Source: an uncultured bacterium (lineage in GTDB: Bacteria > Zhuqueibacterota > QNDG01 > CAYUAG01). Taken from it: DNA of 64,000 nucleotides. Position numbers and translations under genes: made by a program. This document shows, piece by piece, positions 32,016-63,294 of the stretch. Location of the stretch: contig CAYUAG010000002.1 in the NCBI GenBank assembly GCA_964442615.1, forward strand, positions 10,702 to 74,701, given 5' to 3'. How positions within the stretch are numbered: position 1 is the stretch's first letter; every line of letters starts with the position of its first letter. A model generated the notes under the pieces. The model did no database searches. It was not told the DNA's origin and saw only the letters and a program-made list of their open reading frames with translations.

Positions 32016-34430
32016 CTATTTAAGTACTAAAGCTTTCCGTATAACTGAATTCTTATCAGTCATTAATTGATAGAAATAAACTCCTGAGCTTAACTTGCCT
32101 GAATCCCAGGTAACTGAATAACTACCGCTTTGTTTATCCTCGTCCACTAAGGTTTTAATCAACCTGCCCTCTAAGTTGAATACAGTAATAGTTACATGGG
32201 TACAAGAAGAAATGCCATATTTTATAGTGGTTATGGTATTGAATGGATTAGGATAATTCTGATTAAGGGTAAATGAATCGGACAAGGATGTTTGTCGGCT
32301 TTCACAGAAATTACTCGCCCCACCTACAGCCATAATCACGATAAAAGAATGGGCCGGAAAGGTATAGGAAAACGAATTTATAAAATGCTGTTCAGAAATC
32401 TTAGTGAAGGTAACATTCTCCGAAAAGGTATTACTGTTAATTGTCCAGAGGTTCTCTGCATTTAACTCAAAAAACCTGAGTCTTGATAAATTGGAACAAT
32501 TCTGAAAAACTATTTCTGTAGTAATATCCAGATGTTTTTCACCAGATTCTGGTAATCCTGAAGCACGGTTCAGTACATACAAGTAAACAGTATCACTTTT
32601 TCCTGAGCAGGTTACCACTGCATCAAGATAGCAAAGGTTAACAGAATCTGTTTGCACGGTTGTCGAATAAATACTCTTTTCCCTGCCTTCAACAGGTTTA
32701 AATCTGTATTGGGGAATATTTTTCAATTCAGGTTGAATTATTGTGTAACCATAACTCCGGGAGAAAAGACTGTAAACATATCCGGAAGGATTAAAGTACT
32801 GATGGAGATTAGGCCCCATAAGAGAAGTTAAAGGCCATCCTGCTATTGCTTCATCATTGTCAGGAACCAGAGAATGAACATTTAAAACCTTTAATCCAAC
32901 TTGTTGAGATGAACGAAGATAGGACATAAAAGCTCCAGCAACATAGAGGCCATTATCCAGAGAACGACCAAAAAAGTCTAATTGCTCTCCCCTATACCAG
33001 GGATTATTGGTGTGGTTATCACGTCCGCAGATATGATAAACCAAATTATATTCAGTAATTCCAATCCCAATCTTTTTTTGTGCATCAAACCATATATCAA
33101 GATTATCACGGTGCTGGTACATAAGGTTTTCCTGCTTTAAGGCAGTCCACATAATCTGCCAGTGCTCTTTATCGAGTTGCTCAGATCTTCCGGTTTCATA
33201 CCTGTGATCAACTATAAAATCAAAGGGAAGTTCAGAAAATCCTGTATTATTCATTTCCTGAAAGAAAGTCTCATCATGAAATGGTACACCTATACTTATA
33301 TCCTCATCAACAGATTTCATTTTTTCATAAAAATCAATAAGTCCATCTTTATTAACCGATTTGTAGATAACCCTTATCTCAGAACCAGAGGGTGGAATTG
33401 CTCCCTGACTACCCTCACCAAAATCAATCCTGCCAGTCAGGGTATCCAGAGTAAAAACCTTAGCTTCTCCTGTATGTTTTCCCAAATCATCAGTTTGCTG
33501 CCATTGTTCAACGGTTAGGCTGTCAAGCCAAACACCCAGATACAGTGAATCGCCTACAACTGGAGGATATTTCACATTAAAGACCTGGTTCTCACTACCG
33601 TCACTTCTGGAAGCATTAATGGTCCAGTCATTCATCTGGACTACTCTCTGTCCAGTCTGGCGGGTTTCCATCTCATAATACTGCCACTGAGAACCGCCAA
33701 AAACAAAATTATGCACAGTCTTTGAGTAATCTTCTCCCCCTGCCTGCTGCTGCCCAAAATGCCAGGAAAACATATGCTTATACTGTCCTCCCAATTCATT
33801 ACCAATTTCCCATAAGCGTATGTCATAAGGTTGCGGATGTCCCAGATTTTCCCGTAACTGAGCCTGGTCAATTCCATCTGCATTGGGATCTGAACCTGGT
33901 TCATTGTTGGCAAATTCTACCCAGGCTGCAGCTTCAACCGCGGTTCCGGTTCCAAAATTAATACAAATAATCGACTCACTCTCTCCTATTTTATTCATAA
34001 AATCCATAAATTCCATGAAACCAAATGTATAGTAATTGGGTGCAGAAGCTCCGGTTGAACCGTTAAAACCTGAGGGTCGGTCTTCCTGAGGACCAATCCC
34101 ATTCTGCCAGTGATAGCTCCCGCTACAATTCCCTCCTGGAAAACGGAAACATTTAATACCAAGAGTTTGAATGGCCTCATAAAACTTCTGACTGAATTCT
34201 CCTGTAGCTGGATTATATTCTGTTCGAGATGCAAGGTCAGTCATAGGATTGTTAACTCCCAGGAGGGTCGACCTAACTGAACCAAGAGGCTGGCTGGATA
34301 GATCAACTATAATCTCTGGATTACTAGAGACTGACTGAGATAAAACCACACTACCTCTCATATATAAAAAGAAAAGTGAGAACAAATTGATTAAAAAGTA
34401 ACAAACGAATGTTTTCTGGATAAAGTACAA
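32016..34430 (-). CDS. Secreted GH51-like glycoside hydrolase with T9SS C-terminal sorting domain
   Basis: 804 aa with a signal peptide. FRFPGGNCSGSYHWQNGIGPQEDRP and LWEIGNE resemble the alpha-L-arabinofuranosidase (GH51, clan GH-A) signatures. The C-terminal ~80 aa (LNQNYPNPFNTITTIKY...GVYFYQL) is a typical Por/T9SS tail. Confidence 0.7.
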   Translation of the reverse strand: MYFIQKTFVCYFLINLFSLFFLYMRGSVVLSQSVSSNPEIIVDLSSQPLGSVRSTLLGVNNPMTDLASRTEYNPATGEFSQKFYEAIQTLGIKCFRFPGGNCSGSYHWQNGIGPQEDRPSGFNGSTGASAPNYYTFGFMEFMDFMNKIGESESIICINFGTGTAVEAAAWVEFANNEPGSDPNADGIDQAQLRENLGHPQPYDIRLWEIGNELGGQYKHMFSWHFGQQQAGGEDYSKTVHNFVFGGSQWQYYEMETRQTGQRVVQMNDWTINASRSDGSENQVFNVKYPPVVGDSLYLGVWLDSLTVEQWQQTDDLGKHTGEAKVFTLDTLTGRIDFGEGSQGAIPPSGSEIRVIYKSVNKDGLIDFYEKMKSVDEDISIGVPFHDETFFQEMNNTGFSELPFDFIVDHRYETGRSEQLDKEHWQIMWTALKQENLMYQHRDNLDIWFDAQKKIGIGITEYNLVYHICGRDNHTNNPWYRGEQLDFFGRSLDNGLYVAGAFMSYLRSSQQVGLKVLNVHSLVPDNDEAIAGWPLTSLMGPNLHQYFNPSGYVYSLFSRSYGYTIIQPELKNIPQYRFKPVEGREKSIYSTTVQTDSVNLCYLDAVVTCSGKSDTVYLYVLNRASGLPESGEKHLDITTEIVFQNCSNLSRLRFFELNAENLWTINSNTFSENVTFTKISEQHFINSFSYTFPAHSFIVIMAVGGASNFCESRQTSLSDSFTLNQNYPNPFNTITTIKYGISSCTHVTITVFNLEGRLIKTLVDEDKQSGSYSVTWDSGKLSSGVYFYQLMTDKNSVIRKALVLK

Positions 34431-38587: not shown

Positions 38588-38715
38588 AAATTTTCTCCTT
38601 TATTAATTAATAATAATAATTTATTCTCTAACTAATATTAATATAAAAATTACCCGCATTCCATCAGATAAGAATTCAGTTAAGCTTATGTAATTTTACA
38701 AAATAAAAAATTTTG

Positions 38716-38790
38716 TCGGGGCGGAGAGATTTGAACTCTCGACCTCATCGTCCCGAACGATGCGCGCTAGCCGAACTGCGCTACGCCCCG
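38716..38790 (-). tRNA. tRNA-Pro (anticodon CGG)
   Basis: The cloverleaf was folded by hand: acceptor CGGGGCG/CGCCCCG, D stem GCGC/GCGC, anticodon stem CATCG/CGATG with loop TTCGGGA, and T arm GAGAG-TTCAAAT-CTCTC. No CCA is encoded. Confidence 0.95.
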
Positions 38791-39110: not shown

Positions 39111-39139
39111 TTGACAAGTAATCTTTTATTTCCTATATT
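39111..39139 (+). promoter_or_regulatory. Sigma-70-type promoter of the plus-strand sulfur/Fe-S cluster
   Basis: TTGACA (39111-16), a 17-nt spacer, then TATATT (39134-39). It lies about 80 nt upstream of the tusA-like ATG. Confidence 0.55.
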
Positions 39140-39161
39140 TCCTATAGTTTTTATAGGAAAT
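39128..39161 (+). promoter_or_regulatory. Candidate operator: ATTTCCTATA direct repeat plus perfect inverted repeat overlapping the -10
   Basis: ATTTCCTATA occurs at 39128-37 and 39137-46, and its exact reverse complement TATAGGAAAT is at 39152-61 (5-nt spacer GTTTT). An Rrf2 repressor gene is in the same cluster. Confidence 0.45.
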
Positions 39162-39215
39162 AAAATTAATACCAAAATAAATAGTACGAATATAAATATA
39201 AAAAAAGGTAAAAAA

Positions 39216-39437
39216 ATGAAAACAATAAAAGTTAACTGTATGAATGAAACCTGCCCTGTTCCTCTGGTTGAAACCAGAAAGGCAATAAATAATGCCTCCT
39301 CTGGGGATATAATAGAAATTATTGGAAATCACACATCTTCAAAAAAAGAAATCCCCATGGCAGTTGAGGCCCTGGGTCTGGAACTACTTTCTATACAAAA
39401 AGAAGGAAAAGGGTGGAAAATCAAAATAAAAAAATAG
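39216..39437 (+). CDS. TusA/SirA-like sulfur carrier protein
   Basis: 73 aa from the internal ATG (MKTIKVNCMNETCPVPLVETRKAI). It has the CPxP persulfide-carrier motif. The 35 codons upstream in the ORF track cover the promoter and are not coding. Confidence 0.85.
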   Translation: MKTIKVNCMNETCPVPLVETRKAINNASSGDIIEIIGNHTSSKKEIPMAVEALGLELLSIQKEGKGWKIKIKK

Positions 39438-39446
39438 GGGGAAAAA

Positions 39447-39866
39447 ATGGCTGGTAAAGCAACCTTGGTATTACACAGTGGTGATATAGATAAAATCTAC
39501 AGCGTACTTATTATAGGAAATGGTGCTCTGGCAATGGGTATGGAAGTTTCCATATTTTTTACATTCTGGGGTCTGCAAAGATTAAAGAAAAATGGACTTG
39601 ATAAAGGTCCTTTGTCGAAAATGAATTTTTTCGGTCTGGGAAAATGGTTGATTAAAAGAAAGATGAAAAAATCAGGAGTTCGCTCTCTGGAAGAGCTCCT
39701 TCAAAATTATGTTGAACTGGGAGGAAAAATCCTTGCTTGTGATATGACCATGGAGATTATGAGTATTGGAAAAGATGAACTCCGGGATGATCTTATTTCT
39801 GATTATTGCGCAGTAGGAACCTATATTAAAGAAGCACGTGATTCAGAATTAAACCTTTTTATTTAA
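39447..39866 (+). CDS. DsrE/DsrF-like (DsrE2/3-type) sulfur-relay protein
   Basis: 139 aa. ATLVLHSGDIDK...FFTFWGL...GGKILACDMTMEIMSI has the conserved Cys in the AC-x-MTM context typical of the DsrE-like family that pairs with TusA. Confidence 0.75.
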   Translation: MAGKATLVLHSGDIDKIYSVLIIGNGALAMGMEVSIFFTFWGLQRLKKNGLDKGPLSKMNFFGLGKWLIKRKMKKSGVRSLEELLQNYVELGGKILACDMTMEIMSIGKDELRDDLISDYCAVGTYIKEARDSELNLFI

Positions 39867-39877
39867 TGAGGTAGGGT

Positions 39878-41038
39878 ATGAATAAAAAAACTATTTATCT
39901 GGATAATTCTTCAGCAACAAGAATGGATGAAAAAGTTCTGGAAGCTATGAAACCTTATTTCTTTGATACCTATGCAGTTGCATCCTCAGAATTTGGATAT
40001 TCAATGGGTATTAAATCCCAGAAAGCTCTGCAAGAAGCAAGAAAAAAAATATCTAGTATTATATCAGCAGTTCCGGAAGAGTTTATTTTTACAGCAGGGG
40101 GCACTGAATCCAGTAATATTGCTTTAAAAAGCACTGCAAGAAATCCGCTTAATAAAAATAAAAATCACCTAATTACTACAAAAATAGAAGATTTTCCAGT
40201 TCTTAATAGTATAAAAAGCCTGGAGAAAGATGGTTTTAAAGTTACCTATTTGAATGTGGATGATAAAGGTTTCATAGATTTTAAAGAGCTGGAAAATGAA
40301 ATAAAAAATAATACATTATTGGTTTCCATTCAGCACGCTAATCAGGAAATCGGAACTGTACAAGATATTGAAAAAATCGGGAAAATTTGCAAATCCAAAG
40401 GAGTTCTTTTTCATACTGATGCTACTCATACCTTTACCCGTCTGCCTATAAATATAAATAAATATAATATTGATCTCCTGACCATATCGTCTCATACAAT
40501 CCATGGACCTAAAGGTGTTGGTGGATTATTTATCCGAAAAGAATCTCCAATAATCAAATGGATTGATGGCGGTTATCAGGAATTTAATAAAAGGGCCGGA
40601 ATAGAAAACATACCCGGTGCAGTTGGTTTTGCAAAAGCAGCAGAGTTGGTCACACCGGAAGAAAATAAAAAAATAATAAAATTGCGTGATCATCTAATAG
40701 ATAAAGTTCTCTCCGAAATTCCAGAGACAACGCTTAATGGTCATCGTACAAAACGACTACCTCAGAATGCCAACCTAACTTTTCACTTGGTTGAAGGAGA
40801 ATCCATAACTTTGCATATGGATATGAGGGGTTTTGCTATCTCAACTGGTTCTGCCTGTTTTAGCAATTCTCTGGAAGCAAGCCATGTAATTATGGGTATT
40901 GGTGGAGATCATGAAAGGGCACATGGATCAGTAAGATTTTCTTTCAGTCGTTATAATACTATGGATGATGTCAATAGGGTTGTAGAAGAAATAAAAGAGG
41001 TAGTAAAAAAACTGAGAGAGATTAGTCCTCTAAGTTAA
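39878..41038 (+). CDS. Class V aminotransferase-fold IscS/NifS homolog lacking the PLP-binding lysine
   Basis: 386 aa. It is colinear with IscS/NifS (IYLDNSSAT, TAGGTESSN, HANQEIGTVQDI, catalytic loop STGSACFS). The SxHK motif reads SSHTIHGPKGVGG, with codon ACA at 40496-98. The GGxQERGxRxGT motif is degenerate (GGYQEFNKRAGI). Confidence 0.85.
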   Translation: MNKKTIYLDNSSATRMDEKVLEAMKPYFFDTYAVASSEFGYSMGIKSQKALQEARKKISSIISAVPEEFIFTAGGTESSNIALKSTARNPLNKNKNHLITTKIEDFPVLNSIKSLEKDGFKVTYLNVDDKGFIDFKELENEIKNNTLLVSIQHANQEIGTVQDIEKIGKICKSKGVLFHTDATHTFTRLPININKYNIDLLTISSHTIHGPKGVGGLFIRKESPIIKWIDGGYQEFNKRAGIENIPGAVGFAKAAELVTPEENKKIIKLRDHLIDKVLSEIPETTLNGHRTKRLPQNANLTFHLVEGESITLHMDMRGFAISTGSACFSNSLEASHVIMGIGGDHERAHGSVRFSFSRYNTMDDVNRVVEEIKEVVKKLREISPLS

Positions 41039-41058: not shown

Positions 41059-41709
41059 ATGGACTTTCCTTATAGTGAAAAAGTATTGAAACATTTTAAA
41101 AATCCCCAAAATGTGGGTGAAATAGATAATCCTGATGGTATAGCTATGGAAGGCAGTCCTGCCTGTGGAGATATGGTATCAGTTCAAATAAAGGTTAATG
41201 ACAAAAATAAAAAAATTGAAGATATAAAGTTTAAATCCTATGGATGTGCCTCAAATATTGCCACCGGATCAATAATAACAGAACTGGCTAAAGGAAAAAC
41301 TATTGAGGAAGCAAAAAAAATCACCTGGAAACAGGCTTCTAAAGCTTTAGGTGGACTTCCTCCTATAAAAGTTCATTGTTCTGTTTTAGCTGTAGACGGG
41401 CTAAGGGCTGTCATTAAAGATTATGAAGAACGGAATGGATTAATAAAAGAACAGGAACCAACAACAGTTGAAAGTATAAAAAAACGGCTGAAACATGTAA
41501 TGAATCCTATAACTGGCCTTGATATTGTGAAAGCAAATATTGTAAAAAGTATTGATCTTAACAATGGAGAAGTTAGTATAAATATTGATTTATCCCCTGA
41601 TCATCAATTTGCAAATAATATTAGAGAAGAGAAAAAAGAAAAGATTGAACCAATGTGGGATATAAAAAACATAAAAGTAAAATTCAATGAATATACTGAA
41701 AAAGCCTGA
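41059..41709 (+). CDS. IscU-type Fe-S scaffold fused to a C-terminal DUF59/FeS-assembly-P-like domain
   Basis: 216 aa. The three scaffold Cys contexts are PACGD, YGCASNIATGS and KVHCSVLA. The C-terminal ~85 aa (KKRLKHVMNPITGLDIVKANIVKSIDL..GEVSINIDL) fit the DUF59 pattern. Confidence 0.85.
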   Translation: MDFPYSEKVLKHFKNPQNVGEIDNPDGIAMEGSPACGDMVSVQIKVNDKNKKIEDIKFKSYGCASNIATGSIITELAKGKTIEEAKKITWKQASKALGGLPPIKVHCSVLAVDGLRAVIKDYEERNGLIKEQEPTTVESIKKRLKHVMNPITGLDIVKANIVKSIDLNNGEVSINIDLSPDHQFANNIREEKKEKIEPMWDIKNIKVKFNEYTEKA

Positions 41710-42616
41710 TGTAAAAATAAAATTACAAAACAAAATTAAAAAATTAAAAGAAGAAAAAAGAGCTATCATGTTGGTCCACAACTATCAAAGGCCTGAAATT
41801 CAAGAGATAGTAGACTATCTGGGTGATTCTTTAGGTCTTGCTCAACAAGCAGCAAAGATTAAGGCCGATACCATTGTTTTTTGTGGAGTAAAATTTATGG
41901 CTGAAACTGCAAAAATATTATCTCCCTTAAAAAAAATACTGCTTCCGGAAATCCATGCAGGCTGTCCCATGGCAAATATGGTCACAGGAAGGGACATCAT
42001 TGAATTAAAAAACAAACATCCGGAGGCAAAAGTTGTATCCTATGTGAATACAAATGCCGAGGTAAAAGCAGTTAGTGATGTCTGCTGTACCTCCTCCAAT
42101 GCAGTAAAAGTAGTGAAAAATATTGATGCTGATAAAATTATTTTTACTCCAGACAAAAATCTTGGTCACTGGGTTCAACGCTTTGTTGATAAAGAGATGA
42201 TAATCTGGGACGGTTATTGTTACCTACATTCCAGAATTACACCGGAAGAAGTTAAGTTAGCTAAAAATAATATACCAGGTGCTCCCCTCATAGTTCATCC
42301 AGAATGCAGGAAGGAGGTCATTGACCTAGCGGATAAAGTGGGATCAACCAGGGATATGGTTACATTTGCCAGAACATCAGATGCAAAACGTATTATTATC
42401 GGTACTGAAGCGGGACTGATAAATAGATTGACAAGAGAAAATCCAGATAAAAAACTTTTTGCTGCCAGAACTCCAAAAATCTGTCAAAACATGAAAAAAA
42501 CCACCCTAAAAAGCGTTTATAATTCTTTGAAAAAAAACCAGTATGAAATAAATCTTTCAAATGAGATAATACAGGCGGCAAATAAGGCACTTAAATTAAT
42601 GCTGGAATACAGTTAA
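41687..42616 (+). CDS. nadA: Quinolinate synthase ([4Fe-4S] enzyme)
   Basis: 309 aa. It has LVHNYQRPEIQ..VDYLGDSL, the cluster Cys contexts (HAGCPMA, GYCYLH, KICQNMK), and threefold internal repeat organisation. The start overlaps the scaffold gene by 23 nt. Confidence 0.95.
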   Translation: MNILKKPDVKIKLQNKIKKLKEEKRAIMLVHNYQRPEIQEIVDYLGDSLGLAQQAAKIKADTIVFCGVKFMAETAKILSPLKKILLPEIHAGCPMANMVTGRDIIELKNKHPEAKVVSYVNTNAEVKAVSDVCCTSSNAVKVVKNIDADKIIFTPDKNLGHWVQRFVDKEMIIWDGYCYLHSRITPEEVKLAKNNIPGAPLIVHPECRKEVIDLADKVGSTRDMVTFARTSDAKRIIIGTEAGLINRLTRENPDKKLFAARTPKICQNMKKTTLKSVYNSLKKNQYEINLSNEIIQAANKALKLMLEYS

Positions 42617-42648
42617 AAATAAAAAGAATAAAAAAAGTGAGGTATATT

Positions 42649-43104
42649 ATGATCCCTATAAAAACAGCAAAAATCCTATCCTGGTTATTATTATTACTTA
42701 TTATTACCAGTAGTTGCATAGTAGATCCAGAAAAAAACGATACCCAGGTTTTAAAAAACATTTCAGTCGAGGAAGCCTACCGACTTATTGAGGAGAATAA
42801 AGATAATCCTGACTTTACTATCATTGATCTGAGAACTGAATCCGAGTATAATCAAGGATATATTCTGAATGCAATCAATATTGATTATTATTCCCATGAT
42901 TTTTCCCAAACATTAAAAAGCCTTGATAAAAGCAAGACATATTTAATTTATTGTAGAAGCGGCAATCGAAGTGGTAACACCTTAGATAAAATGAAAAAAC
43001 TGGATTTTGAAATAGTGTATAATCTTGCCAAGGGAATAATCAAATGGATCGAAAAGGGGTATCCAATCGTTGAGGAGTGCCCTGTTTGCACCGTGGGAAA
43101 ATAG
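42649..43104 (+). CDS. Exported single-domain rhodanese (thiosulfate/persulfide sulfurtransferase-like)
   Basis: A signal peptide ends in ..IITSSC (possible lipobox). The active-site loop is YCRSGNRSG and the C-terminus carries a CPVC. I chose the ATG at 42649 (GAGG 7 nt upstream); the ORF track starts at the GTG at 42637. Confidence 0.85.
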   Translation: MIPIKTAKILSWLLLLLIITSSCIVDPEKNDTQVLKNISVEEAYRLIEENKDNPDFTIIDLRTESEYNQGYILNAINIDYYSHDFSQTLKSLDKSKTYLIYCRSGNRSGNTLDKMKKLDFEIVYNLAKGIIKWIEKGYPIVEECPVCTVGK

Positions 43105-43137: not shown

Positions 43138-43581
43138 ATGTGGCAATTATCAACCAAAGGGAGATATGGAACCCGGTTAATGTTTCAACTGGCTTTAAAA
43201 TTTGGTAAAGGTCCTGTATTATTAAAGGATATTGCAGAAGCAGAGAATCTCACTTTAAAATATCTTGAACATATTGTACCTTTACTGAAATCAGCAAAAT
43301 TAATTATATCGGTAAGAGGACCTCATGGTGGTTATCAATTGACCACAGAACCGGATAAAATAAATTTAAAAGATATTTTAGAAGTTTTAGAAGGTGATAT
43401 AGCACCGGTAAATTGTATTATTTTGCCAACCTTGTGCAACAAAAGTTCATCCTGTGTTACCAGAGATGTGTGGTGTTTACTTGAGGATAAAATCATTGAT
43501 ACCTTAAAAAATATAACTCTGAAAGATATGATTGTAATGTATAAAAAAAAGCTTAAAAATCAATCAACATCAACATTTTGA
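43138..43581 (+). CDS. Rrf2-family transcriptional regulator with three-Cys cluster-ligand motif
   Basis: 147 aa. LSTKGRYGTRLMFQLA is the winged HTH. CNKSSSCVTRDVWC (C-x6-C-x6-C) sits where IscR/NsrR-type Fe-S ligands lie. Confidence 0.9.
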   Translation: MWQLSTKGRYGTRLMFQLALKFGKGPVLLKDIAEAENLTLKYLEHIVPLLKSAKLIISVRGPHGGYQLTTEPDKINLKDILEVLEGDIAPVNCIILPTLCNKSSSCVTRDVWCLLEDKIIDTLKNITLKDMIVMYKKKLKNQSTSTF

Positions 43582-43709: not shown

Positions 43710-44198
43710 ATGAAAACTAAAATATTTTTATTCATTTTCGTATTTTTTATTGCTCTTACCTTATTGTCTCAATCCTTACTGGCACAAAATAAATCATGCT
43801 GTAGTTCTGACCAGGACAAAACTGAAAAATCTTGCTGTGGAGACTGTCAAGAAGAAAAGGAAAAAAAAGTAGGTAAAGGTACACAGGAAAATTGTCCAGT
43901 CATGGGCAATAAGGTAAACAAAAAGTTTTACACTGATTATATGGGAAAGAGAGTTTATTTCTGTTGCTCCGGATGCATTGATACCTTCAAGAAAGATCCT
44001 GAAAAATATATGAAGAAGATGAAGGAAGCAGGTGTAAAGCTTGAATCTGTTCCCTGCCCGATTTCAGGTAATCCTTCCAATCATGAGATTTTTACGGAGC
44101 ATGAAGGAGAAAAAGTCTATTTTTGCTGTGAAGGATGCAAAGAAAAATTCGAAAAGGATCCAAAGAAGTATCTGAAACAGGAAGAGAAAAAGGAATAG
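43710..44198 (+). CDS. Exported Cys-rich protein with two YHS/TRASH-type metal-binding domains
   Basis: 162 aa with a signal peptide, then CCSSDQDKTEKSCCGDC. Two repeats follow: CPVMGNKV...YFCCSGCIDTFKKDPEKY and CPISGNPS...YFCCEGCKEKFEKDPKKY. Confidence 0.75.
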   Translation: MKTKIFLFIFVFFIALTLLSQSLLAQNKSCCSSDQDKTEKSCCGDCQEEKEKKVGKGTQENCPVMGNKVNKKFYTDYMGKRVYFCCSGCIDTFKKDPEKYMKKMKEAGVKLESVPCPISGNPSNHEIFTEHEGEKVYFCCEGCKEKFEKDPKKYLKQEEKKE

Positions 44199-47043: not shown

Positions 47044-49125
47044 CTAATACTTTTCTGAATTTTTATCCTTTTTGCTCTTGGCAATGAGCATTTCAATAAT
47101 CAATAGTCCTAATGCTAATAAAATCATCTCTTTCCATAGCTCTCTCCCAAATCTAGACTTTGAAACTATTTGCTCTAATCTATCAATATTGTTGATAAAA
47201 TAAACCTTTGAATTAGGAAAAAATTCTTTAATCCTTTTTTCAGAAATCTTACCAAAATCCGATTCTCTCTGATCAATATTGATTGCCCTAAGCCCCAATT
47301 GAGTTGAATTATGAAAAAATCTATATATTCCTGGTTTTTGAGTATTCTCTAACTCTAATAAAATCTTTTCATTATTTATCTCAGGAAGAATTTTTATTAG
47401 TCTTTCATCAGGGTCTTGTACATAGAATTCTCCTTCCATTGATTCTGGATTTTCCAATAAAAATATTCTATCACCAACAGTGTTATATTCAGTCTTTACA
47501 ATCTCTTCAATGGAAAGATACCCTATACTTCGGATCATTAAGGGAGCAAAAATAGTACTAAAAGCAAAATCTGACCAGCTCTGCTGTAAAGAAGTTGAAA
47601 TACAGATAATTTTACCATTTAATACTCTCTTTTCCACCATAAATGGAATATCATTTCTAAGATCAATAATGGTTATACAGTCCCTGCCAAATAATTCTAT
47701 ACTTTTAAATATTTGAGGAGATTTAAAATTTCTCTCCCCTCTCTCAAATATACCCTTAAATAACGGATGTCCATAGTCCACATTTCTAATACTTAAACTG
47801 GAACCTGATGTCTCAGCACTTCTGATTACATTACCCAAGGTAATCTCTGCAATTGGTTGAAAAAATTGCTGATTCAATTGTTGAATATTAATATCATTCC
47901 CCATAAAAAAGAAAAGATTTCCTCCCTGTTGTAGAAATTTCCTCAAGCTTTCAATCTCTATTGCTCTAAATTGAGGATAATTTGAAAAAACAATTACATC
48001 AGTTGAATCAAGTTCCTCTGTCCAAGCAGTTCCAATAATATAATTCTTAACCTTATACTGATTTTTATTCTTATCCAGGGCCTTAAGGCATAATTCTAGA
48101 GGTAAAATATCGTTTAACTCGTTTCCAATAAGAAATACTCCCCTTTTTTCAGGTAGATGATAAACAAAATATGAGGTATTATCATAAGGAAAACTCCCAT
48201 TTTCCACTCTTATTTTTCCATAATGCCAACCTGTATTAATATAAACAGCATTAAACTCAACTCTCTGTTTCTCATTTTTATTTAAATTTATAGTCATCTG
48301 ATCAACAGTTTTATCATCAAGACTGATTCTGACCAATAGATCCTCTATGAAATTATCTGAAAAATTTTCAATTTCAGCAAATACATCTCCTACTGCTCCA
48401 GACTGAAAAATACTACTTTTAATGCCACTTTTTGTAACAGCTATATTTTTCCTCTCTCCCTGAATGGGTAAAATAAATATATTTCTCTTCCAGGAATTGA
48501 ATATCGAACTATCTTGTCCAGGATTCCATTCAGATCCCTGTTGATCAGTAAAAATAAAAATCTCTTTATTAAGTTCTTTTTGATTATTAAGAAATTGTAT
48601 GGATTCAGAAATTTTATCTAATAAGTCTCCTTTATAAAATGATATGTGAAGATTTTTTACTTTCTCCTTTAAGGTTTTTTTGTTATACAATGATCGAAAA
48701 GGTATTTCTCGAAAAGCTTGGGTAAGTAATAAAGATGCTTTATCATTCGATTTCATTAAATCAAGAACTGAATGGATATTTGCTTTAAGCTTTTCAAGCA
48801 TACCACTGCGTTTCAAACTCAAAGAGCGGTCAATGACCAATGACATTGCAGAAGCAGCTCCACTTCTACTTAAAAAAGAAGATTCTTTAAAAACAGGGCG
48901 GGAAAATCCAAGAACCAAAAAGAGAATAATCAGCCCCCTGATGATCATTAATAAAATCTGTTTTAATCGTATCCTACGAAGCTGCTGGGGTTGGAGTATT
49001 TTTAAGAAACGTAATGTACTGAAATATATTTTTTTTTGCTTTCTCTTGGCAAATAAATGTATAAGAAATGGAATGCTAACACCCAAAAGACCAAAAAGAA
49101 TACTAATATTAAGAAAATTCAACAT
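47044..49125 (-). CDS. Membrane protein with BatA-type aerotolerance-regulator N-terminal double-TM domain and C-terminal anchor
   Basis: 693 aa. MLNFLNISILFGLLGVSIPFLIHLFAKRK plus a second TM match the N-terminal double-transmembrane domain family. There is also a C-terminal TM (EMILLALGLLIIEMLIA). The middle region is not recognised. Confidence 0.6.
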   Translation of the reverse strand: MLNFLNISILFGLLGVSIPFLIHLFAKRKQKKIYFSTLRFLKILQPQQLRRIRLKQILLMIIRGLIILFLVLGFSRPVFKESSFLSRSGAASAMSLVIDRSLSLKRSGMLEKLKANIHSVLDLMKSNDKASLLLTQAFREIPFRSLYNKKTLKEKVKNLHISFYKGDLLDKISESIQFLNNQKELNKEIFIFTDQQGSEWNPGQDSSIFNSWKRNIFILPIQGERKNIAVTKSGIKSSIFQSGAVGDVFAEIENFSDNFIEDLLVRISLDDKTVDQMTINLNKNEKQRVEFNAVYINTGWHYGKIRVENGSFPYDNTSYFVYHLPEKRGVFLIGNELNDILPLELCLKALDKNKNQYKVKNYIIGTAWTEELDSTDVIVFSNYPQFRAIEIESLRKFLQQGGNLFFFMGNDINIQQLNQQFFQPIAEITLGNVIRSAETSGSSLSIRNVDYGHPLFKGIFERGERNFKSPQIFKSIELFGRDCITIIDLRNDIPFMVEKRVLNGKIICISTSLQQSWSDFAFSTIFAPLMIRSIGYLSIEEIVKTEYNTVGDRIFLLENPESMEGEFYVQDPDERLIKILPEINNEKILLELENTQKPGIYRFFHNSTQLGLRAINIDQRESDFGKISEKRIKEFFPNSKVYFINNIDRLEQIVSKSRFGRELWKEMILLALGLLIIEMLIAKSKKDKNSEKY

Positions 49126-62688: not shown

Positions 62689-62960
62689 AGGCTGTGCACC
62701 CTTTCTCGATACTGCTAAATTGAATTCAATTTTAGCAGCCAACTCCAGCCAAGTAAAACTACGGCACATGTTAAATTGTTTACCGCTGCTACCTTCCGGT
62801 CCTGACGGGATTCAACAATCGACCATTGCGTAGAACTCGAACTATCAACATTACTTACCAAAATATCCTCCAGCCAGCACACATCTCGTCCGGGAATTAA
62901 ATCCTGCTATAGCGGATTGCAGGTTACAAGGCACCGCTAATTCCTCATCTAGCACAGCCT
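62689..62960 (-). ncRNA. ffs: Signal recognition particle RNA, long (Bacillus-type, Alu domain-containing) form, ~272 nt
   Basis: The reverse strand contains the domain IV core GUCAGGACCGGAAGGUAGCAGC...CAUGUGCCG. The 5' Alu-domain stretch GCUGUGCUAGAUGAGGAAUUAGCGGUGCCUUGUAACCUGCAAUCCGCUAUAGCAGG is close to B. subtilis scRNA as I recall it. The terminal 9-bp helix is AGGCUGUGC/GCACAGCCU. Confidence 0.9.
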
Positions 62961-62966
62961 GTTCTG

Positions 62967-63039
62967 TGGAGCAGAGCGGGTTTGAACCGCCGACCTGTAC
63001 GTTGCGAACGTACTGCTCTCCCAATTGAGCTACTGCCCC
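62967..63039 (-). tRNA. tRNA-Ala (anticodon CGC)
   Basis: Hand-folded: acceptor GGGGCAG/CTGCTCC with the G3:U70 Ala identity pair, anticodon loop TTCGCAA and T loop TTCAAAC. No CCA is encoded. Confidence 0.93.
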
Positions 63040-63048
63040 TACACTCAG

Positions 63049-63133
63049 CGGAGAGGGTGGGATTCGAACCCACGGTAGCATTCACTACACACGCTTTCCA
63101 AGCGTGCACCTTCAACCGCTCGGTCACCTCTCC
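63049..63133 (-). tRNA. tRNA-Ser (anticodon GGA)
   Basis: It has acceptor GGAGAGG/CCTCTCC, anticodon loop TTGGAAA, a long variable arm (GTAGTGAATGCTACC) and the T arm GTGGG-TTCGAAT-CCCAC. Confidence 0.93.
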
Positions 63134-63197
63134 TTTAAACTTTCCACTGCACCCGCTCTTAGAAAAATAGTCACCTTGAAAAAAGATTAAATATTCA

Positions 63198-63285
63198 GCG
63201 GAGAGGGTGGGATTCGAACCCACGGTCTTGATACCCAAGACAACGGTTTTCGAGACCGCCCGATTCAACCACTCTCGCACCTCTC
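63198..63285 (-). tRNA. tRNA-Ser (anticodon CGA)
   Basis: It has the same acceptor and T arm as the neighbouring tRNA-Ser, anticodon loop CTCGAAA and a long variable arm (GTCTTGGGTATCAAGACC). Confidence 0.93.
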
Positions 63286-63294
63286 CATCAATAT

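What the first reader, a model, noticed from the sequence alone, without database searches (positions are those of the whole stretch)
40496..40498. IscS/NifS homolog with the Schiff-base lysine replaced by threonine (SSH-T-IHGPKG)
Seen: codon 207 is ACA (Thr), in the string DLLTISSHTIHGPKGVGGLF. This aligns residue for residue with the SxHK(I/F)xGPKG(I/V)G motif of IscS/NifS, where the Lys (K206 in E. coli IscS) forms the internal aldimine with PLP.

Two other PLP or substrate contacts are also altered. DATH replaces DA(V/T)Q, and GGYQEFNKRAGI replaces GG(G/H)QERGxR(S/A)GT. The catalytic-loop Cys (STGSACFS) and the overall length are retained.

Established, from memory: at least one archaeal IscS (Archaeoglobus fulgidus) naturally lacks this Lys and PLP yet still complexes with IscU.

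Inference: this is a pseudo-desulfurase acting as a scaffold partner or persulfide acceptor, not a sequencing artefact. Several independent active-site positions have drifted while the ORF remains intact.
Basis: partly seen in the sequence, partly recalled or inferred. Interest (0 to 1): 0.65.

Follow-up and report, generated by a model that had tools for sequence, protein, structure and literature searches.

The report
Lysine-less IscS paralog in sulfur-relay cassette
This gene encodes a well-conserved relative of the cysteine desulfurase IscS that has lost the lysine and other residues needed for its vitamin-B6 chemistry; it almost always sits in a four-gene block with two sulfur-carrier proteins and an iron-sulfur scaffold, which suggests a cysteine-independent way of building iron-sulfur clusters in anaerobes.

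Summary
Codon 207 of ORF 39878-41038(+) is ACA (Thr) and aligns with the Schiff-base Lys206 of E. coli IscS.

It is not an artefact or private drift:
- All 80 related genome loci have Thr at this site, spread over all four Thr codons.
- 113 of 120 homologous protein clusters have Thr.
- dN/dS against an 80%-identical relative is 0.09.

The whole PLP/substrate pocket is rebuilt into a fixed alternative signature: N35V, H104D, N155Q, Q183H, K206T, G234F/Y, R237F, T243L/I/V. The fold, the mobile Cys327 loop, D180, H205 and R354 are kept.

The family is 62-70% identical across anaerobic Bacteria and Archaea. It includes Methanosarcina acetivorans IscS1 (MA0808), which has been noted in the literature to lack PLP-binding residues but has never been characterised. 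It differs from the Archaeoglobus fulgidus Lys-less IscS.

The gene order TusA-like, DsrE2-like, IscS-like, IscU::DUF59 is conserved. All four genes are present in 70 of 80 loci.

Best reading: a PLP-independent partner of IscU whose Cys loop handles sulfur delivered by TusA/DsrE2. The donor role of TusA/DsrE2 is inferred, not shown.

I class it as a new variant of a known kind, of moderate to high interest.

The parts
39111..39139 (+). Promoter-like site (TTGACA-17-TATATT, 11 of 12 matches) about 75 nt upstream of the TusA start codon
   Evidence: This is a consensus match only: the number of sites in the region is not above the shuffled expectation. No + strand terminator-like site was found between 39216 and 44198.
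39216..39437 (+). TusA-like sulfur carrier (73 aa) with a conserved CPVP cysteine
   Evidence: Pfam TusA, 8e-20. The motif tCPvPLVE.RKA is conserved across 75 orthologs. NCBIfam scores fall below the TusA, YedF and YeeD equivalog cut-offs. The JGI gene call gives 73 aa; the longer TTG ORF starting at 39111 is probably not used.
39447..39866 (+). DsrE2-like (DrsE_2 family) sulfur-carrier-like protein, 139 aa, with conserved Cys98 (ILACDMTME)
   Evidence: Pfam DrsE_2, 2e-35. NCBIfam DsrE2 scores 70 bits against a cut-off of 210. PDB relatives are 2qs7 and 3pnx ('putative sulfurtransferase DsrE'), with the Cys aligned. 61-79% identical in 78 of 80 loci; 70 of the 73 loci with enough upstream sequence have TusA and DsrE2 directly upstream.
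39878..41038 (+). IscS/NifS-like class-V fold protein lacking the PLP lysine (IscS1/MA0808 family), 386 aa
   Evidence: Pfam Aminotran_5, 1e-68. PDB 4eb5, 2e-98. AF2 model has pLDDT 96, with TM 0.93-0.96 to NFS1, IscS and Af IscS. NCBIfam NifS scores 454 against a cut-off of 530.75, and IscS 378 against 548. dN/dS is 0.087.
40496..40498 (+). Codon 207, ACA = Thr, in place of the Schiff-base Lys (E. coli IscS K206)
40190..40192 (+). Codon 105, GAT = Asp, in place of His104 (PLP-stacking acid-base residue)
   Evidence: Asp occurs in 99% of the family; His occurs in 99% of Lys-containing relatives.
40343..40345 (+). Codon 156, CAG = Gln, in place of Asn155
40427..40429 (+). Codon 184, CAT = His, in place of Gln183 (DATH instead of DAVQ)
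40574..40603 (+). Loop YQEFNKRAGI: Y233 (G234), F236 (R237) and I242 (T243, which contacts the PLP phosphate from the other subunit)
   Evidence: The family has F/Y, F and L/I/V at these three sites.
40856..40858 (+). Codon 327, TGT = Cys, the retained catalytic-loop cysteine (STGSACFS)
   Evidence: Invariant in 121 of 121 sequences. It lies in the only low-confidence, and so probably mobile, segment of the model, residues 327-329.
41059..41709 (+). IscU scaffold (C36, D38, C63, C107, LPPIK) fused to a C-terminal DUF59/FeS_assembly_P domain, 216 aa
   Evidence: Pfam NifU_N, 7e-43, plus FeS_assembly_P, 2.5e-12. Best PDB hit is A. fulgidus IscU 4eb5_C. Cys positions. Found directly downstream in 68 of 71 assessable loci.
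41687..42616 (+). NadA quinolinate synthase; overlaps the iscU 3' end by 23 nt
   Evidence: Pfam NadA, 4e-120. The linkage is seen only in the window lineage and not in the 80 genome loci. That NadA is a [4Fe-4S] enzyme rests on established knowledge.
42637..43104 (+). Rhodanese-domain protein with an N-terminal hydrophobic leader; possibly exported, and a peripheral member at best
   Evidence: Pfam Rhodanese, 1.4e-17. Sequence. Also present in L081, L083 and L002.
43138..43581 (+). Rrf2-family regulator (IscR/CymR-like) with three clustered cysteines; the probable regulator
   Evidence: Pfam Rrf2, 8.5e-34. NCBIfam scores are below the IscR and CymR cut-offs. Rrf2 genes also follow the cassette in L040, L051, L056, L063, L064 and L066.

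Best explanation
The gene encodes a functional, strongly conserved paralog of type I cysteine desulfurase (the M. acetivorans IscS1/MA0808 family). It has given up PLP chemistry and cannot make persulfide from cysteine.

It keeps the dimeric class-V fold and the mobile Cys327 loop. It is encoded next to a complete IscU scaffold fused to a DUF59 domain.

Most likely it forms an (IscS-like)2(IscU)2 complex like that of A. fulgidus. In that complex Cys327 would carry sulfane sulfur to IscU and/or serve as the fourth ligand of the nascent [2Fe-2S] cluster.

The sulfur would not come from cysteine. It would come from the two co-encoded cysteine-persulfide carriers, TusA-like and DsrE2-like, which would be charged from sulfide, polysulfide or thiosulfate-derived sulfur, or from another enzyme.

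Shown here: loss of the catalytic residues, retention of the fold and the Cys loop, purifying selection, and the conserved four-gene cassette.

Inferred: complex formation, the direction of sulfur flow, and the sulfur source.
For: 1. Loss of PLP catalysis. K206T, H104D, N155Q, Q183H and N35V all fall at sites that are 97-100% conserved in Lys-containing relatives. G234F/Y, R237F and T243(L/I/V) are also changed. The protein scores below every NCBIfam desulfurase equivalog cut-off.

2. A functional protein.
- dN/dS is 0.087.
- Identity is 62-70% between Bacteria and Archaea.
- Thr at this site is encoded by all four codons.
- The AF2 model has pLDDT 96 and TM 0.95 to NFS1/IscS.
- C327 and R353 are invariant.

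3. Fe-S context.
- IscU with the full ligand set plus a DUF59 domain lies downstream in 68 of 71 assessable loci.
- The best PDB hits of both proteins are the A. fulgidus IscS-IscU complex 4eb5. In that complex the IscS Cys ligates the [2Fe-2S] cluster (PMC13066941; PMC7585200).
- Rrf2 regulators lie nearby.
- NadA is translationally coupled to iscU in this lineage.

4. Sulfur relay.
- TusA-like and DsrE2-like genes, each with a conserved Cys, lie directly upstream in 70 of 73 assessable loci across about 15 lineages.
- Some bacterial loci add a glutaredoxin and a ferredoxin:thioredoxin-reductase-like protein, which could supply reductant for persulfide.

5. All named hosts come from anaerobic lineages, including methanogens, Dehalococcoidales, Syntrophales and Thermodesulfovibrionales. 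Sulfide as a sulfur source has been shown or proposed for such organisms.
Against: - No biochemical data exist for any member. M. acetivorans IscS1 was insoluble in E. coli.
- D180, T76, S203 and H205, which bind the PLP ring nitrogen and phosphate, are retained along with the substrate-binding R354. Binding of PMP/PLP or another ligand is therefore not excluded. Af IscS binds PMP without the Lys.
- The cassette comes apart in a few genomes. Methanobacterium loci L027 and L039 have TusA-DsrE2-IscS-like without an adjacent IscU. L067 and L077 have IscS-like-IscU without TusA/DsrE2. L001 has the IscS-like gene alone.
- In E. coli, sulfur flows from IscS to TusA, the opposite of the direction proposed here.
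- I could not test whether the host genomes also carry an active desulfurase that could charge this protein. M. acetivorans does have two.
- The DUF59 domain lacks the reactive Cys typical of SufT.
Confidence: 0.55

Rival explanations
1. Pure scaffold partner, as in the A. fulgidus model. The protein only holds IscU and lends Cys327 as a cluster ligand. Sulfur enters as free sulfide. TusA and DsrE2 serve another purpose, such as sulfide or persulfide buffering, detoxification, or sulfur supply to other pathways.
For: - Af IscS-IscU is the closest solved relative, and this is the role proposed for it.
- The hosts are anaerobes from sulfide-rich habitats.
- SMS systems use sulfide directly.
- IscS-like-IscU pairs without TusA/DsrE2 exist, in L067 and L077.
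Against: - TusA and DsrE2 lie directly upstream in 70 of 73 assessable loci across both domains. That is hard to explain if they are functionally unrelated.
- Af IscS has neither these neighbours nor this residue signature.
- A passive scaffold role does not explain the invariance of the new residues D105, Q156 and H184.
Confidence: 0.2
2. Persulfide acceptor or adaptor downstream of a separate, active cysteine desulfurase encoded elsewhere in the genome. The Lys-less paralog would relay that sulfur to IscU::DUF59, TusA and DsrE2, for Fe-S assembly, tRNA thiolation or cofactor synthesis.
For: - M. acetivorans has the active paralogs IscS2 and IscS3 in addition to IscS1.
- In the 80%-identical relative L083 the operon continues with MnmA (tRNA 2-thiouridylase) and NadE. 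This recalls the E. coli IscS-TusA-TusBCD-MnmA relay (established knowledge).
Against: - No active desulfurase is encoded in the 64-kb window or consistently near the cassette.
- It is unclear what a 386-aa inactive intermediary would add, since TusA can dock on an active IscS directly.
- Co-occurrence across whole genomes was not testable here.
Confidence: 0.13
3. The protein is still an enzyme. The rebuilt pocket (V34, D105, Q156, D181, H184, H206, T207, F233, F236) binds a different cofactor, metal or substrate and mobilises sulfur (or selenium) by non-PLP chemistry, or by non-covalently bound PMP/PLP.
For: - The replacement residues are as invariant as catalytic residues.
- Asp and His residues are concentrated where the PLP ring sat.
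- D180, H205, T76 and R354 are retained.
- Af IscS binds PMP without the Lys.
- The best NCBIfam hit of the TusA-like protein is the selenium-metabolism protein YedF, although below its cut-off.
Against: - There is no precedent for this in the class-V fold.
- The aromatic residues at 233 and 236 and the aliphatic residue at 242 look more like a plug for an empty cofactor pocket.
- T207 itself tolerates I, P and N in a few members.
Confidence: 0.1
4. Sequencing or assembly error, or a decaying pseudogene.
For: None beyond the loss of canonical residues.
Against: - The same protein occurs on contigs of two data sets.
- Thr is conserved in all 80 loci, spread over four codons.
- dN/dS is 0.087.
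- The ORF is intact and the model is high-confidence.
Confidence: 0.01

Closest known systems
Methanosarcina acetivorans IscS1 (MA0808) with IscU1 (MA0807), the isc1 cluster (Deere et al. 2020, PMC7585200)
   Same: Same family.
- The Methanosarcina sp. T3 ortholog (L050) is 65% identical to the window protein. Its length (384 aa), mass (42.2 kDa) and STGSACFS position (318) match the published MA0808 values exactly.
- Its IscU (C45, C72, C116, LPPIK at 109, 24.3 kDa) matches MA0807.
- The paper notes that IscS1 lacks PLP-binding residues including the Lys, and that iscS1-iscU1 are clustered with four genes of unknown function.
   Different: - The window gene is bacterial: a T9SS protein suggests the FCB group, GC is 34%, and the closest named relatives are Marinimicrobia.
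- The paper did not identify the neighbouring genes as TusA and DsrE2. It did not report the full residue signature or the cross-domain distribution, and it did not characterise the protein, which was insoluble.
Archaeoglobus fulgidus IscS (AF0564; PDB 4eb5, 4eb7, 4hvk, 4r5f), the inactive desulfurase in the IscS-IscU [2Fe-2S] complex
   Same: - Type I fold.
- The Schiff-base Lys is absent.
- The Cys loop is retained, and in Af IscS it ligates the cluster on IscU.
- It is encoded with IscU.
- It is the best PDB hit of both window proteins.
   Different: - Only about 43% identical.
- The signature differs. Af keeps H104 and N155 and has A, N, D and S at positions 183, 205, 206 and 243, so it can still hold PMP/PLP. 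The window family changes H104, N155, Q183 and N35 and inserts aromatics at 234 and 237.
- Af IscU has no DUF59 domain.
- No TusA/DsrE2 linkage is known for Af.
- It forms a separate cluster (P0152) in the representative library.
MIS (minimal ISC system, MisS-MisU) of anaerobic Archaea and Bacteria (Garcia et al. 2022, as summarised in PMC13066941 and PMC12192291)
   Same: An IscS-like plus IscU-like pair without HscAB, Fdx or IscA, found in anaerobes.
   Different: - MIS is defined as having an active cysteine desulfurase. Here the desulfurase residues are gone.
- Two sulfur carriers and a DUF59 fusion are added.
- Phylogenetic placement within MisS was not tested.
E. coli IscS-TusA-TusBCD(DsrEFH-like)-TusE-MnmA sulfur relay
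   Same: The same protein families are juxtaposed: IscS-like, TusA with a CPxP Cys, and a DsrE-family protein with a conserved Cys. MnmA lies in the same operon in relative L083.
   Different: - In E. coli an active IscS is the sulfur source and TusA the acceptor. Here the IscS-like protein cannot generate persulfide, so the flow must start elsewhere.
- DsrE2-like is a single DrsE_2-family protein, not TusBCD.

Membership tests
Type I cysteine desulfurase (IscS/NifS, EC 2.8.1.7) | Fold-type I, class-V aminotransferase fold with the long mobile Cys loop | tested here: met
   Pfam PF00266, 1e-68. AF2 pLDDT 96, with TM 0.93-0.96 to NFS1, IscS and NifS. The loop around C327 has low confidence.
Type I cysteine desulfurase (IscS/NifS, EC 2.8.1.7) | Schiff-base lysine (E. 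coli K206) forming the internal aldimine with PLP | tested here: not met
   T207, from ACA at 40496-40498. Lys is present in all 115 full-length Lys-type relatives used as the comparison set.
Type I cysteine desulfurase (IscS/NifS, EC 2.8.1.7) | Catalytic and PLP-contacting residues His104, Asn155, Gln183, Thr243' and Asn35 | tested here: not met
   These are D105, Q156, H184, I242 and V34 in the window protein.
Type I cysteine desulfurase (IscS/NifS, EC 2.8.1.7) | Asp180, Thr76, Ser203, His205, Arg354 and the nucleophilic Cys328 | tested here: met
   All are retained, and invariant or nearly invariant in the family.
Type I cysteine desulfurase (IscS/NifS, EC 2.8.1.7) | Score above the curated equivalog cut-off (NCBIfam NifS or IscS) | tested here: not met
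   NifS TIGR03402 scores 454.4 against 530.75. IscS NF010611 scores 378.5 against 548. TIGR02006 scores 363.9 against 643.2.
Type I cysteine desulfurase (IscS/NifS, EC 2.8.1.7) | PLP binding and production of alanine plus persulfide from L-cysteine | not testable with these tools
   Needs purified protein, UV-vis spectroscopy and an activity assay.
M. acetivorans IscS1/IscU1 (MA0808/MA0807) family | STGSACFS loop motif, missing PLP-binding residues, and high identity to the Methanosarcina ortholog | tested here: met
   65% identical to the L050 protein, whose length, mass and motif position equal the published MA0808 values. The signature is shared.
M. acetivorans IscS1/IscU1 (MA0808/MA0807) family | Partner IscU of about 24 kDa with an extra C-terminal domain, and clustering with additional small genes | tested here: met
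   The window IscU is 216 aa and carries FeS_assembly_P. TusA and DsrE2 lie upstream in both the window and Methanosarcina.
A. fulgidus-type inactive IscS | No Schiff-base Lys, Cys loop retained, adjacent IscU | tested here: met
A. fulgidus-type inactive IscS | Same lineage and substitution pattern: D at 206, N at 205, with H104 and N155 kept so that the pocket can still hold PMP | tested here: not met
   The signature differs, and it falls in a separate 50%-identity cluster (P0152 versus P0121). Identity is about 43%.
A. fulgidus-type inactive IscS | Forms an (IscS-IscU)2 complex with the [2Fe-2S] cluster ligated by the IscS Cys | not testable with these tools
   No multimer prediction or biochemistry was available.
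MIS (MisS-MisU minimal ISC system) | IscS-like plus IscU-like pair without HscAB, Fdx or IscA | tested here: met
   The neighbours are TusA, DsrE2, NadA, a rhodanese and Rrf2. No chaperone or carrier genes are present.
MIS (MisS-MisU minimal ISC system) | MisS is an active cysteine desulfurase | tested here: not met
   The catalytic residues are missing.
MIS (MisS-MisU minimal ISC system) | Phylogenetic placement inside the MisS clade of Garcia et al. 2022 | not tested
   The paper and its reference set were not held.
TusA/DsrE-type persulfide relay | TusA CPxP cysteine and DsrE-family active-site cysteine are present and conserved | tested here: met
   CPVP in TusA and ACxMTM in DsrE2 are conserved in 75 and 78 orthologs respectively. 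The Cys aligns with those of PDB 2qs7 and 3pnx.
TusA/DsrE-type persulfide relay | Demonstrated sulfur transfer between the components | not testable with these tools
   Requires persulfide-transfer assays.

The most novel reading that the evidence does not exclude
The four-gene cassette (TusA-like, DsrE2-like, Lys-less IscS-like, IscU::DUF59) is a distinct, horizontally spread, cysteine-independent Fe-S assembly machine of anaerobes.

In this reading the former PLP pocket has been rebuilt into a new conserved functional site made of D105, Q156, D181, H184, H206 and T207. Sulfane sulfur carried by TusA/DsrE2, ultimately from sulfide, polysulfide or thiosulfate, is loaded onto Cys327 and then into clusters on IscU.

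That would be a new kind of sulfur donor for Fe-S biogenesis, alongside PLP desulfurases and direct sulfide use by SMS.
Probability: 0.25. Interest if true: 0.85.

Novelty: new variant of a known kind. Interest (0 to 1): 0.58.

Why it matters
How strict anaerobes obtain the sulfur for iron-sulfur clusters without cysteine desulfurase activity is an open question. It has been raised for Methanococcales, for SMS systems and for the A. fulgidus IscS-IscU pair.

This finding shows that a Lys-less IscS is not a curiosity of one archaeon. It is a tightly conserved family, 62-70% identical across domains, with a rebuilt active site. It is encoded almost obligatorily with two persulfide carriers and an IscU::DUF59 scaffold.

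That gives a concrete hypothesis to test: a TusA/DsrE2 to Cys-loop to IscU relay. A genetically tractable host, M. acetivorans with MA0807/MA0808 and its upstream genes, is available for the test.

It also warns annotators that 'cysteine desulfurase' is a wrong name for hundreds of database entries.

Tried and rejected
1. AF2 with 42 close family members gave an unusable model, pLDDT 51. Adding diverse relatives fixed this, giving pLDDT 96.
2. Model coordinates are not exposed. I therefore could not measure whether D105, D181, H184 and H206 could form a metal site, and that idea stays speculative.
3. A Biopython NJ tree timed out. A crude UPGMA/Fitch count gave at least 5 changes of state at the Lys position, and the nearest neighbours of most Lys-less representatives carry Lys. 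This suggests several independent losses but is not a proper phylogeny.
Only the window itself could be checked, and it has no second class-V gene.
5. Garcia et al. 2022, which defines MIS, is not held.
6. Literature searches found nothing on this cassette beyond Deere et al. 2020. The term combinations covered TusA, DsrE, DsrE2, IscS, IscU and methanogen/Methanosarcina, IscU with DUF59 fusion, and MA0808/IscS1.
7. Rejected: sequencing error or pseudogene.
8. Rejected: that the NadA, rhodanese or YHS genes belong to the conserved unit. They are lineage-specific.
9. A selenium link was considered, based on weak YedF and 'rhodanese (seleno)protein' hits and an AIRS protein in L083. All of these are below their cut-offs or ambiguous, so it was not pursued.
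Full report
**1. Observation**

ORF 39878..41038 (+) encodes 386 aa. Bases 40496-40498 are ACA, which is codon 207, Thr, within DLLTISSHTIHGPKGVGGLF.

HMMER alignments to solved structures put this Thr in the column of the Schiff-base Lys. The relevant strings are SAHKMYGPKG in the 9wep desulfurase, SSNDIYGPKG in A. fulgidus IscS and SSNKIYGPKG in its D199K mutant. A MAFFT alignment with E. coli IscS maps T207 onto K206.

- H184 replaces Q183 (DATH).
- Y233 replaces G234, F236 replaces R237 and I242 replaces T243.

- D105 replaces His104.
- Q156 replaces Asn155.
- V34 replaces Asn35.

Retained residues are T76, D180, S203, H205, R240, Cys328 (C327 here) and R354.

**2. Not an artefact and not drift**

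- The identical protein is found on contigs of a JGI metagenome (3300008517) and of a Logan assembly (SRR3095939).
- The 120 best protein clusters, at 66-84% identity, nearly all share the same signature. Counts are D at 104 in 119, Q at 155 in 120, H at 183 in 120, T at 206 in 113 (I in 5, P and N in 1 each), F/Y at 234 in 120, F at 237 in 112, and L/I/V at 243 in 116. T76, D180, H205, R240, C328 and R354 are invariant.
- All 80 genome loci have Thr. In the 73 matched by the motif search the codons are ACC 34, ACA 16, ACG 13 and ACT 10.
- Against the 80%-identical relative L083, dN/dS is 0.087.
- Compared with 115 Lys-containing relatives, the family-specific invariant residues fall on canonical positions that are 97-100% conserved: N35, H104, N155, Q183 and K206.

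The pocket has therefore been remodelled and then frozen. It has not decayed.

**3. Fold**

A first AF2 run with close homologs only was poor, with pLDDT 51. With 126 diverse sequences the model reaches pLDDT 96 and pTM 0.94. Its only low-confidence stretch lies around C327, the mobile catalytic loop of type I desulfurases.

Foldseek gives TM 0.93-0.96 and rmsd 1.3-1.8 Å to human NFS1, E. coli IscS and A. fulgidus IscS.

NCBIfam scores are below every desulfurase equivalog cut-off. NifS scores 454 against 530.75, and IscS scores 378 against 548.

**4. Which family**

In a library clustered at 50% identity, the family collapses to essentially one full-length representative, P0121 (62% identity, 559 bits). 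The next hits are Lys-containing proteins at 52% identity or less.

About 17 of the 150 nearest representatives lack the Lys, carrying T, L, D, M, Q, P, S or R instead. These include the A. fulgidus type, P0152 (SSNDIYGPKG). Most of them have Lys-containing nearest neighbours. Lys-less IscS paralogs are therefore recurrent, and this one is distinct from the A. fulgidus type.

The genome scan returned 80 loci at 62-70% identity:
- Bacteria: Dehalococcoidales, Anaerolineae, Syntrophales, Thermodesulfovibrionales, Nitrospiraceae MAGs, WOR-3, Clostridia, Actinobacteria and Armatimonadia.
- Archaea: Methanosarcina, Methanothrix, Methanomethylovorans, Methanococcoides, Methanobacterium, Hadarchaeota and a Thermococci MAG.

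The Methanosarcina sp. T3 ortholog (L050) is 384 aa and 42.2 kDa, with STGSACFS at residue 318. Its IscU has C45, C72 and C116, LPPIK at 109, and a mass of 24.3 kDa. These are exactly the values Deere et al. 2020 list for M. acetivorans IscS1 (MA0808) and IscU1 (MA0807).

That paper states that IscS1 lacks the PLP-binding residues, including the essential Lys. It suggests IscS1 may act like A. fulgidus IscS, and reports that it formed inclusion bodies in E. coli. It also notes that iscS1-iscU1 are clustered with four genes of unknown function. I found no other paper dealing with it.

**5. Context**

In the window the + strand carries the following genes:

| Gene | Coordinates | Notes |
|---|---|---|
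| TusA-like | 39216-39437 | CPVP motif |
| DsrE2-like (DrsE_2) | 39447-39866 | Cys98 |
| IscS-like | 39878-41038 | |
| IscU::DUF59 | 41059-41709 | C36, D38, C63, C107, LPPIK |
| NadA | 41687-42616 | overlaps iscU by 23 nt |
| Rhodanese | 42637-43104 | hydrophobic leader |
| Rrf2 regulator | 43138-43581 | three Cys |
| YHS protein | 43710-44198 | secreted |

A tblastn search of these proteins against the 80 loci shows the first four genes colinear in 70 loci. TusA plus DsrE2 lie directly upstream in 70 of 73 loci with enough sequence to assess. IscU::DUF59 lies directly downstream in 68 of 71.

Clustering all flanking ORFs finds no other gene conserved across lineages. The TusA Cys and the DsrE2 Cys are conserved throughout, and the DsrE2 Cys aligns with that of DsrE-like PDB entries.

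Exceptions:
- Methanobacterium loci L027 and L039 lack an adjacent IscU.
- L067, and L077 (a second Methanosarcina copy), lack TusA/DsrE2.
- L001 has the IscS-like gene alone.
- L076 has TusA/DsrE2 downstream rather than upstream.

Some bacterial loci add Rrf2, a glutaredoxin and a ferredoxin:thioredoxin-reductase-like::rubredoxin protein. The 80%-identical relative L083 extends the operon with NadE, MnmA and an AIRS-family protein.

**6. Mechanism**

What is shown: the protein cannot form an internal aldimine, and it lacks the acid-base His. It keeps the fold, the mobile Cys and the partner scaffold, is under strong constraint, and is genetically tied to two Cys-persulfide carrier families.

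What rests on published work with the closest solved relative: A. fulgidus IscS has no desulfurase activity. It binds IscU, and its loop Cys is the fourth ligand of the [2Fe-2S] cluster. Sulfide was proposed as the sulfur source.

What I infer for this family: it is the IscU-docking platform, and Cys327 receives sulfane sulfur from TusA/DsrE2 and passes it to IscU, or ligates the nascent cluster.

Direct sulfide use without the carriers, and charging by another active desulfurase, remain live rivals.

Retention of D180, T76, S203, H205 and R354, together with the invariance of the new D105, Q156 and H184, leaves room for a new ligand or metal site.

**7. Comparison and novelty**

The kind of thing is known: an inactive, Lys-less IscS paired with IscU. 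It is known from A. fulgidus through structures and assays, and from M. acetivorans IscS1 through sequence inspection.

What is new here:
- The full, conserved substitution signature, which differs from the A. fulgidus one.
- The unusually high cross-domain conservation and the presence of the family in many bacterial phyla.
- The identification of the 'unknown' neighbours as a TusA/DsrE2 pair that is almost obligatorily linked.
- The IscU::DUF59 fusion as part of the unit.

I rate it a new variant of a known kind, with interest 0.58.

**8. Host**

GC content is 34%. A T9SS sorting-domain protein and BatA point to the FCB group, and the closest named relative is a Marinimicrobia MAG. The window comes from a metagenome contig.

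Noticed in passing
window 41687-41709: The nadA start overlaps the iscU::DUF59 stop region by 23 nt, which suggests translational coupling of a [4Fe-4S] enzyme to the scaffold. This linkage is present only in the window lineage (L081, L083) and not in the 80 genome loci.
   Followed up: partly
window 42637-43104: The rhodanese-domain protein has an N-terminal hydrophobic, lipobox-like leader (LLLLIITSSC) and a C-terminal CPVC. It is probably exported, so it may not belong to the cytoplasmic sulfur relay despite its position in the operon.
   Followed up: no
window 43710-44198: A secreted, Cys-rich protein with two YHS domains. In relative L083 the homolog precedes OEP, CusB-like and ACR_tran efflux genes, so it probably belongs to a metal-efflux unit rather than to the Fe-S cassette.
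   Followed up: partly
L083 13747-16745: In the 80%-identical relative, the operon continues after Rrf2 with NAD synthase, MnmA (tRNA 2-thiouridylase) and an AIRS/AIRS_C protein (SelD-, ThiL- or HypE-like). This hints that the cassette may also feed tRNA thiolation, or possibly selenium metabolism.
   Followed up: partly
L051 10839-11357; L056 10550-10834; also L001 9864-10352: In WOR-3-like and other uncultured bacterial loci, the cassette plus Rrf2 is followed by a glutaredoxin and a ferredoxin:thioredoxin-reductase catalytic-subunit::rubredoxin-like protein. This is a candidate reductant for persulfide or disulfide intermediates.
   Followed up: partly
window 41449-41709 (IscU residues 131-216): The DUF59/FeS_assembly_P domain fused to IscU contains no cysteine. 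SufT-type DUF59 proteins are reported to have a conserved reactive Cys (PMC4982691).
   Followed up: partly
window 38715-38790 (-) and 39111-39437 (+): tRNA-Pro(CGG) lies in the gap upstream of the operon. Gene callers disagree on the TusA start: a 108-aa ORF from TTG at 39111 versus a 73-aa ORF from ATG at 39216. Homolog alignment favours the short form.
   Followed up: partly
L027 7570-9173 and L039 1307-2972 (Methanobacterium MAGs): These loci have TusA-DsrE2-IscS-like without an adjacent IscU gene. In L027 a GTPase follows instead. The Lys-less protein may therefore have a role that does not require a neighbouring scaffold, in an order where many species are said to lack iscSU.
   Followed up: no
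P0126, P0130, P0139, P0141, P0169, P0176, P0184, P0213, P0222, P0226: Several other IscS-like clusters also lack the Schiff-base Lys, carrying L, T, M, P or Q instead, each with its own pocket changes. Some again have Phe at the G234 position. Their contexts were not examined.
   Followed up: no
window 32016-34430 (-), 47044-49125 (-), 62692-63286 (-): A T9SS C-terminal sorting-domain protein and a BatA-family protein suggest an FCB-group bacterium. A large SRP RNA, followed by tRNA-Ala(CGC), tRNA-Ser(GGA) and tRNA-Ser(CGA), lies near the window end.
   Followed up: no
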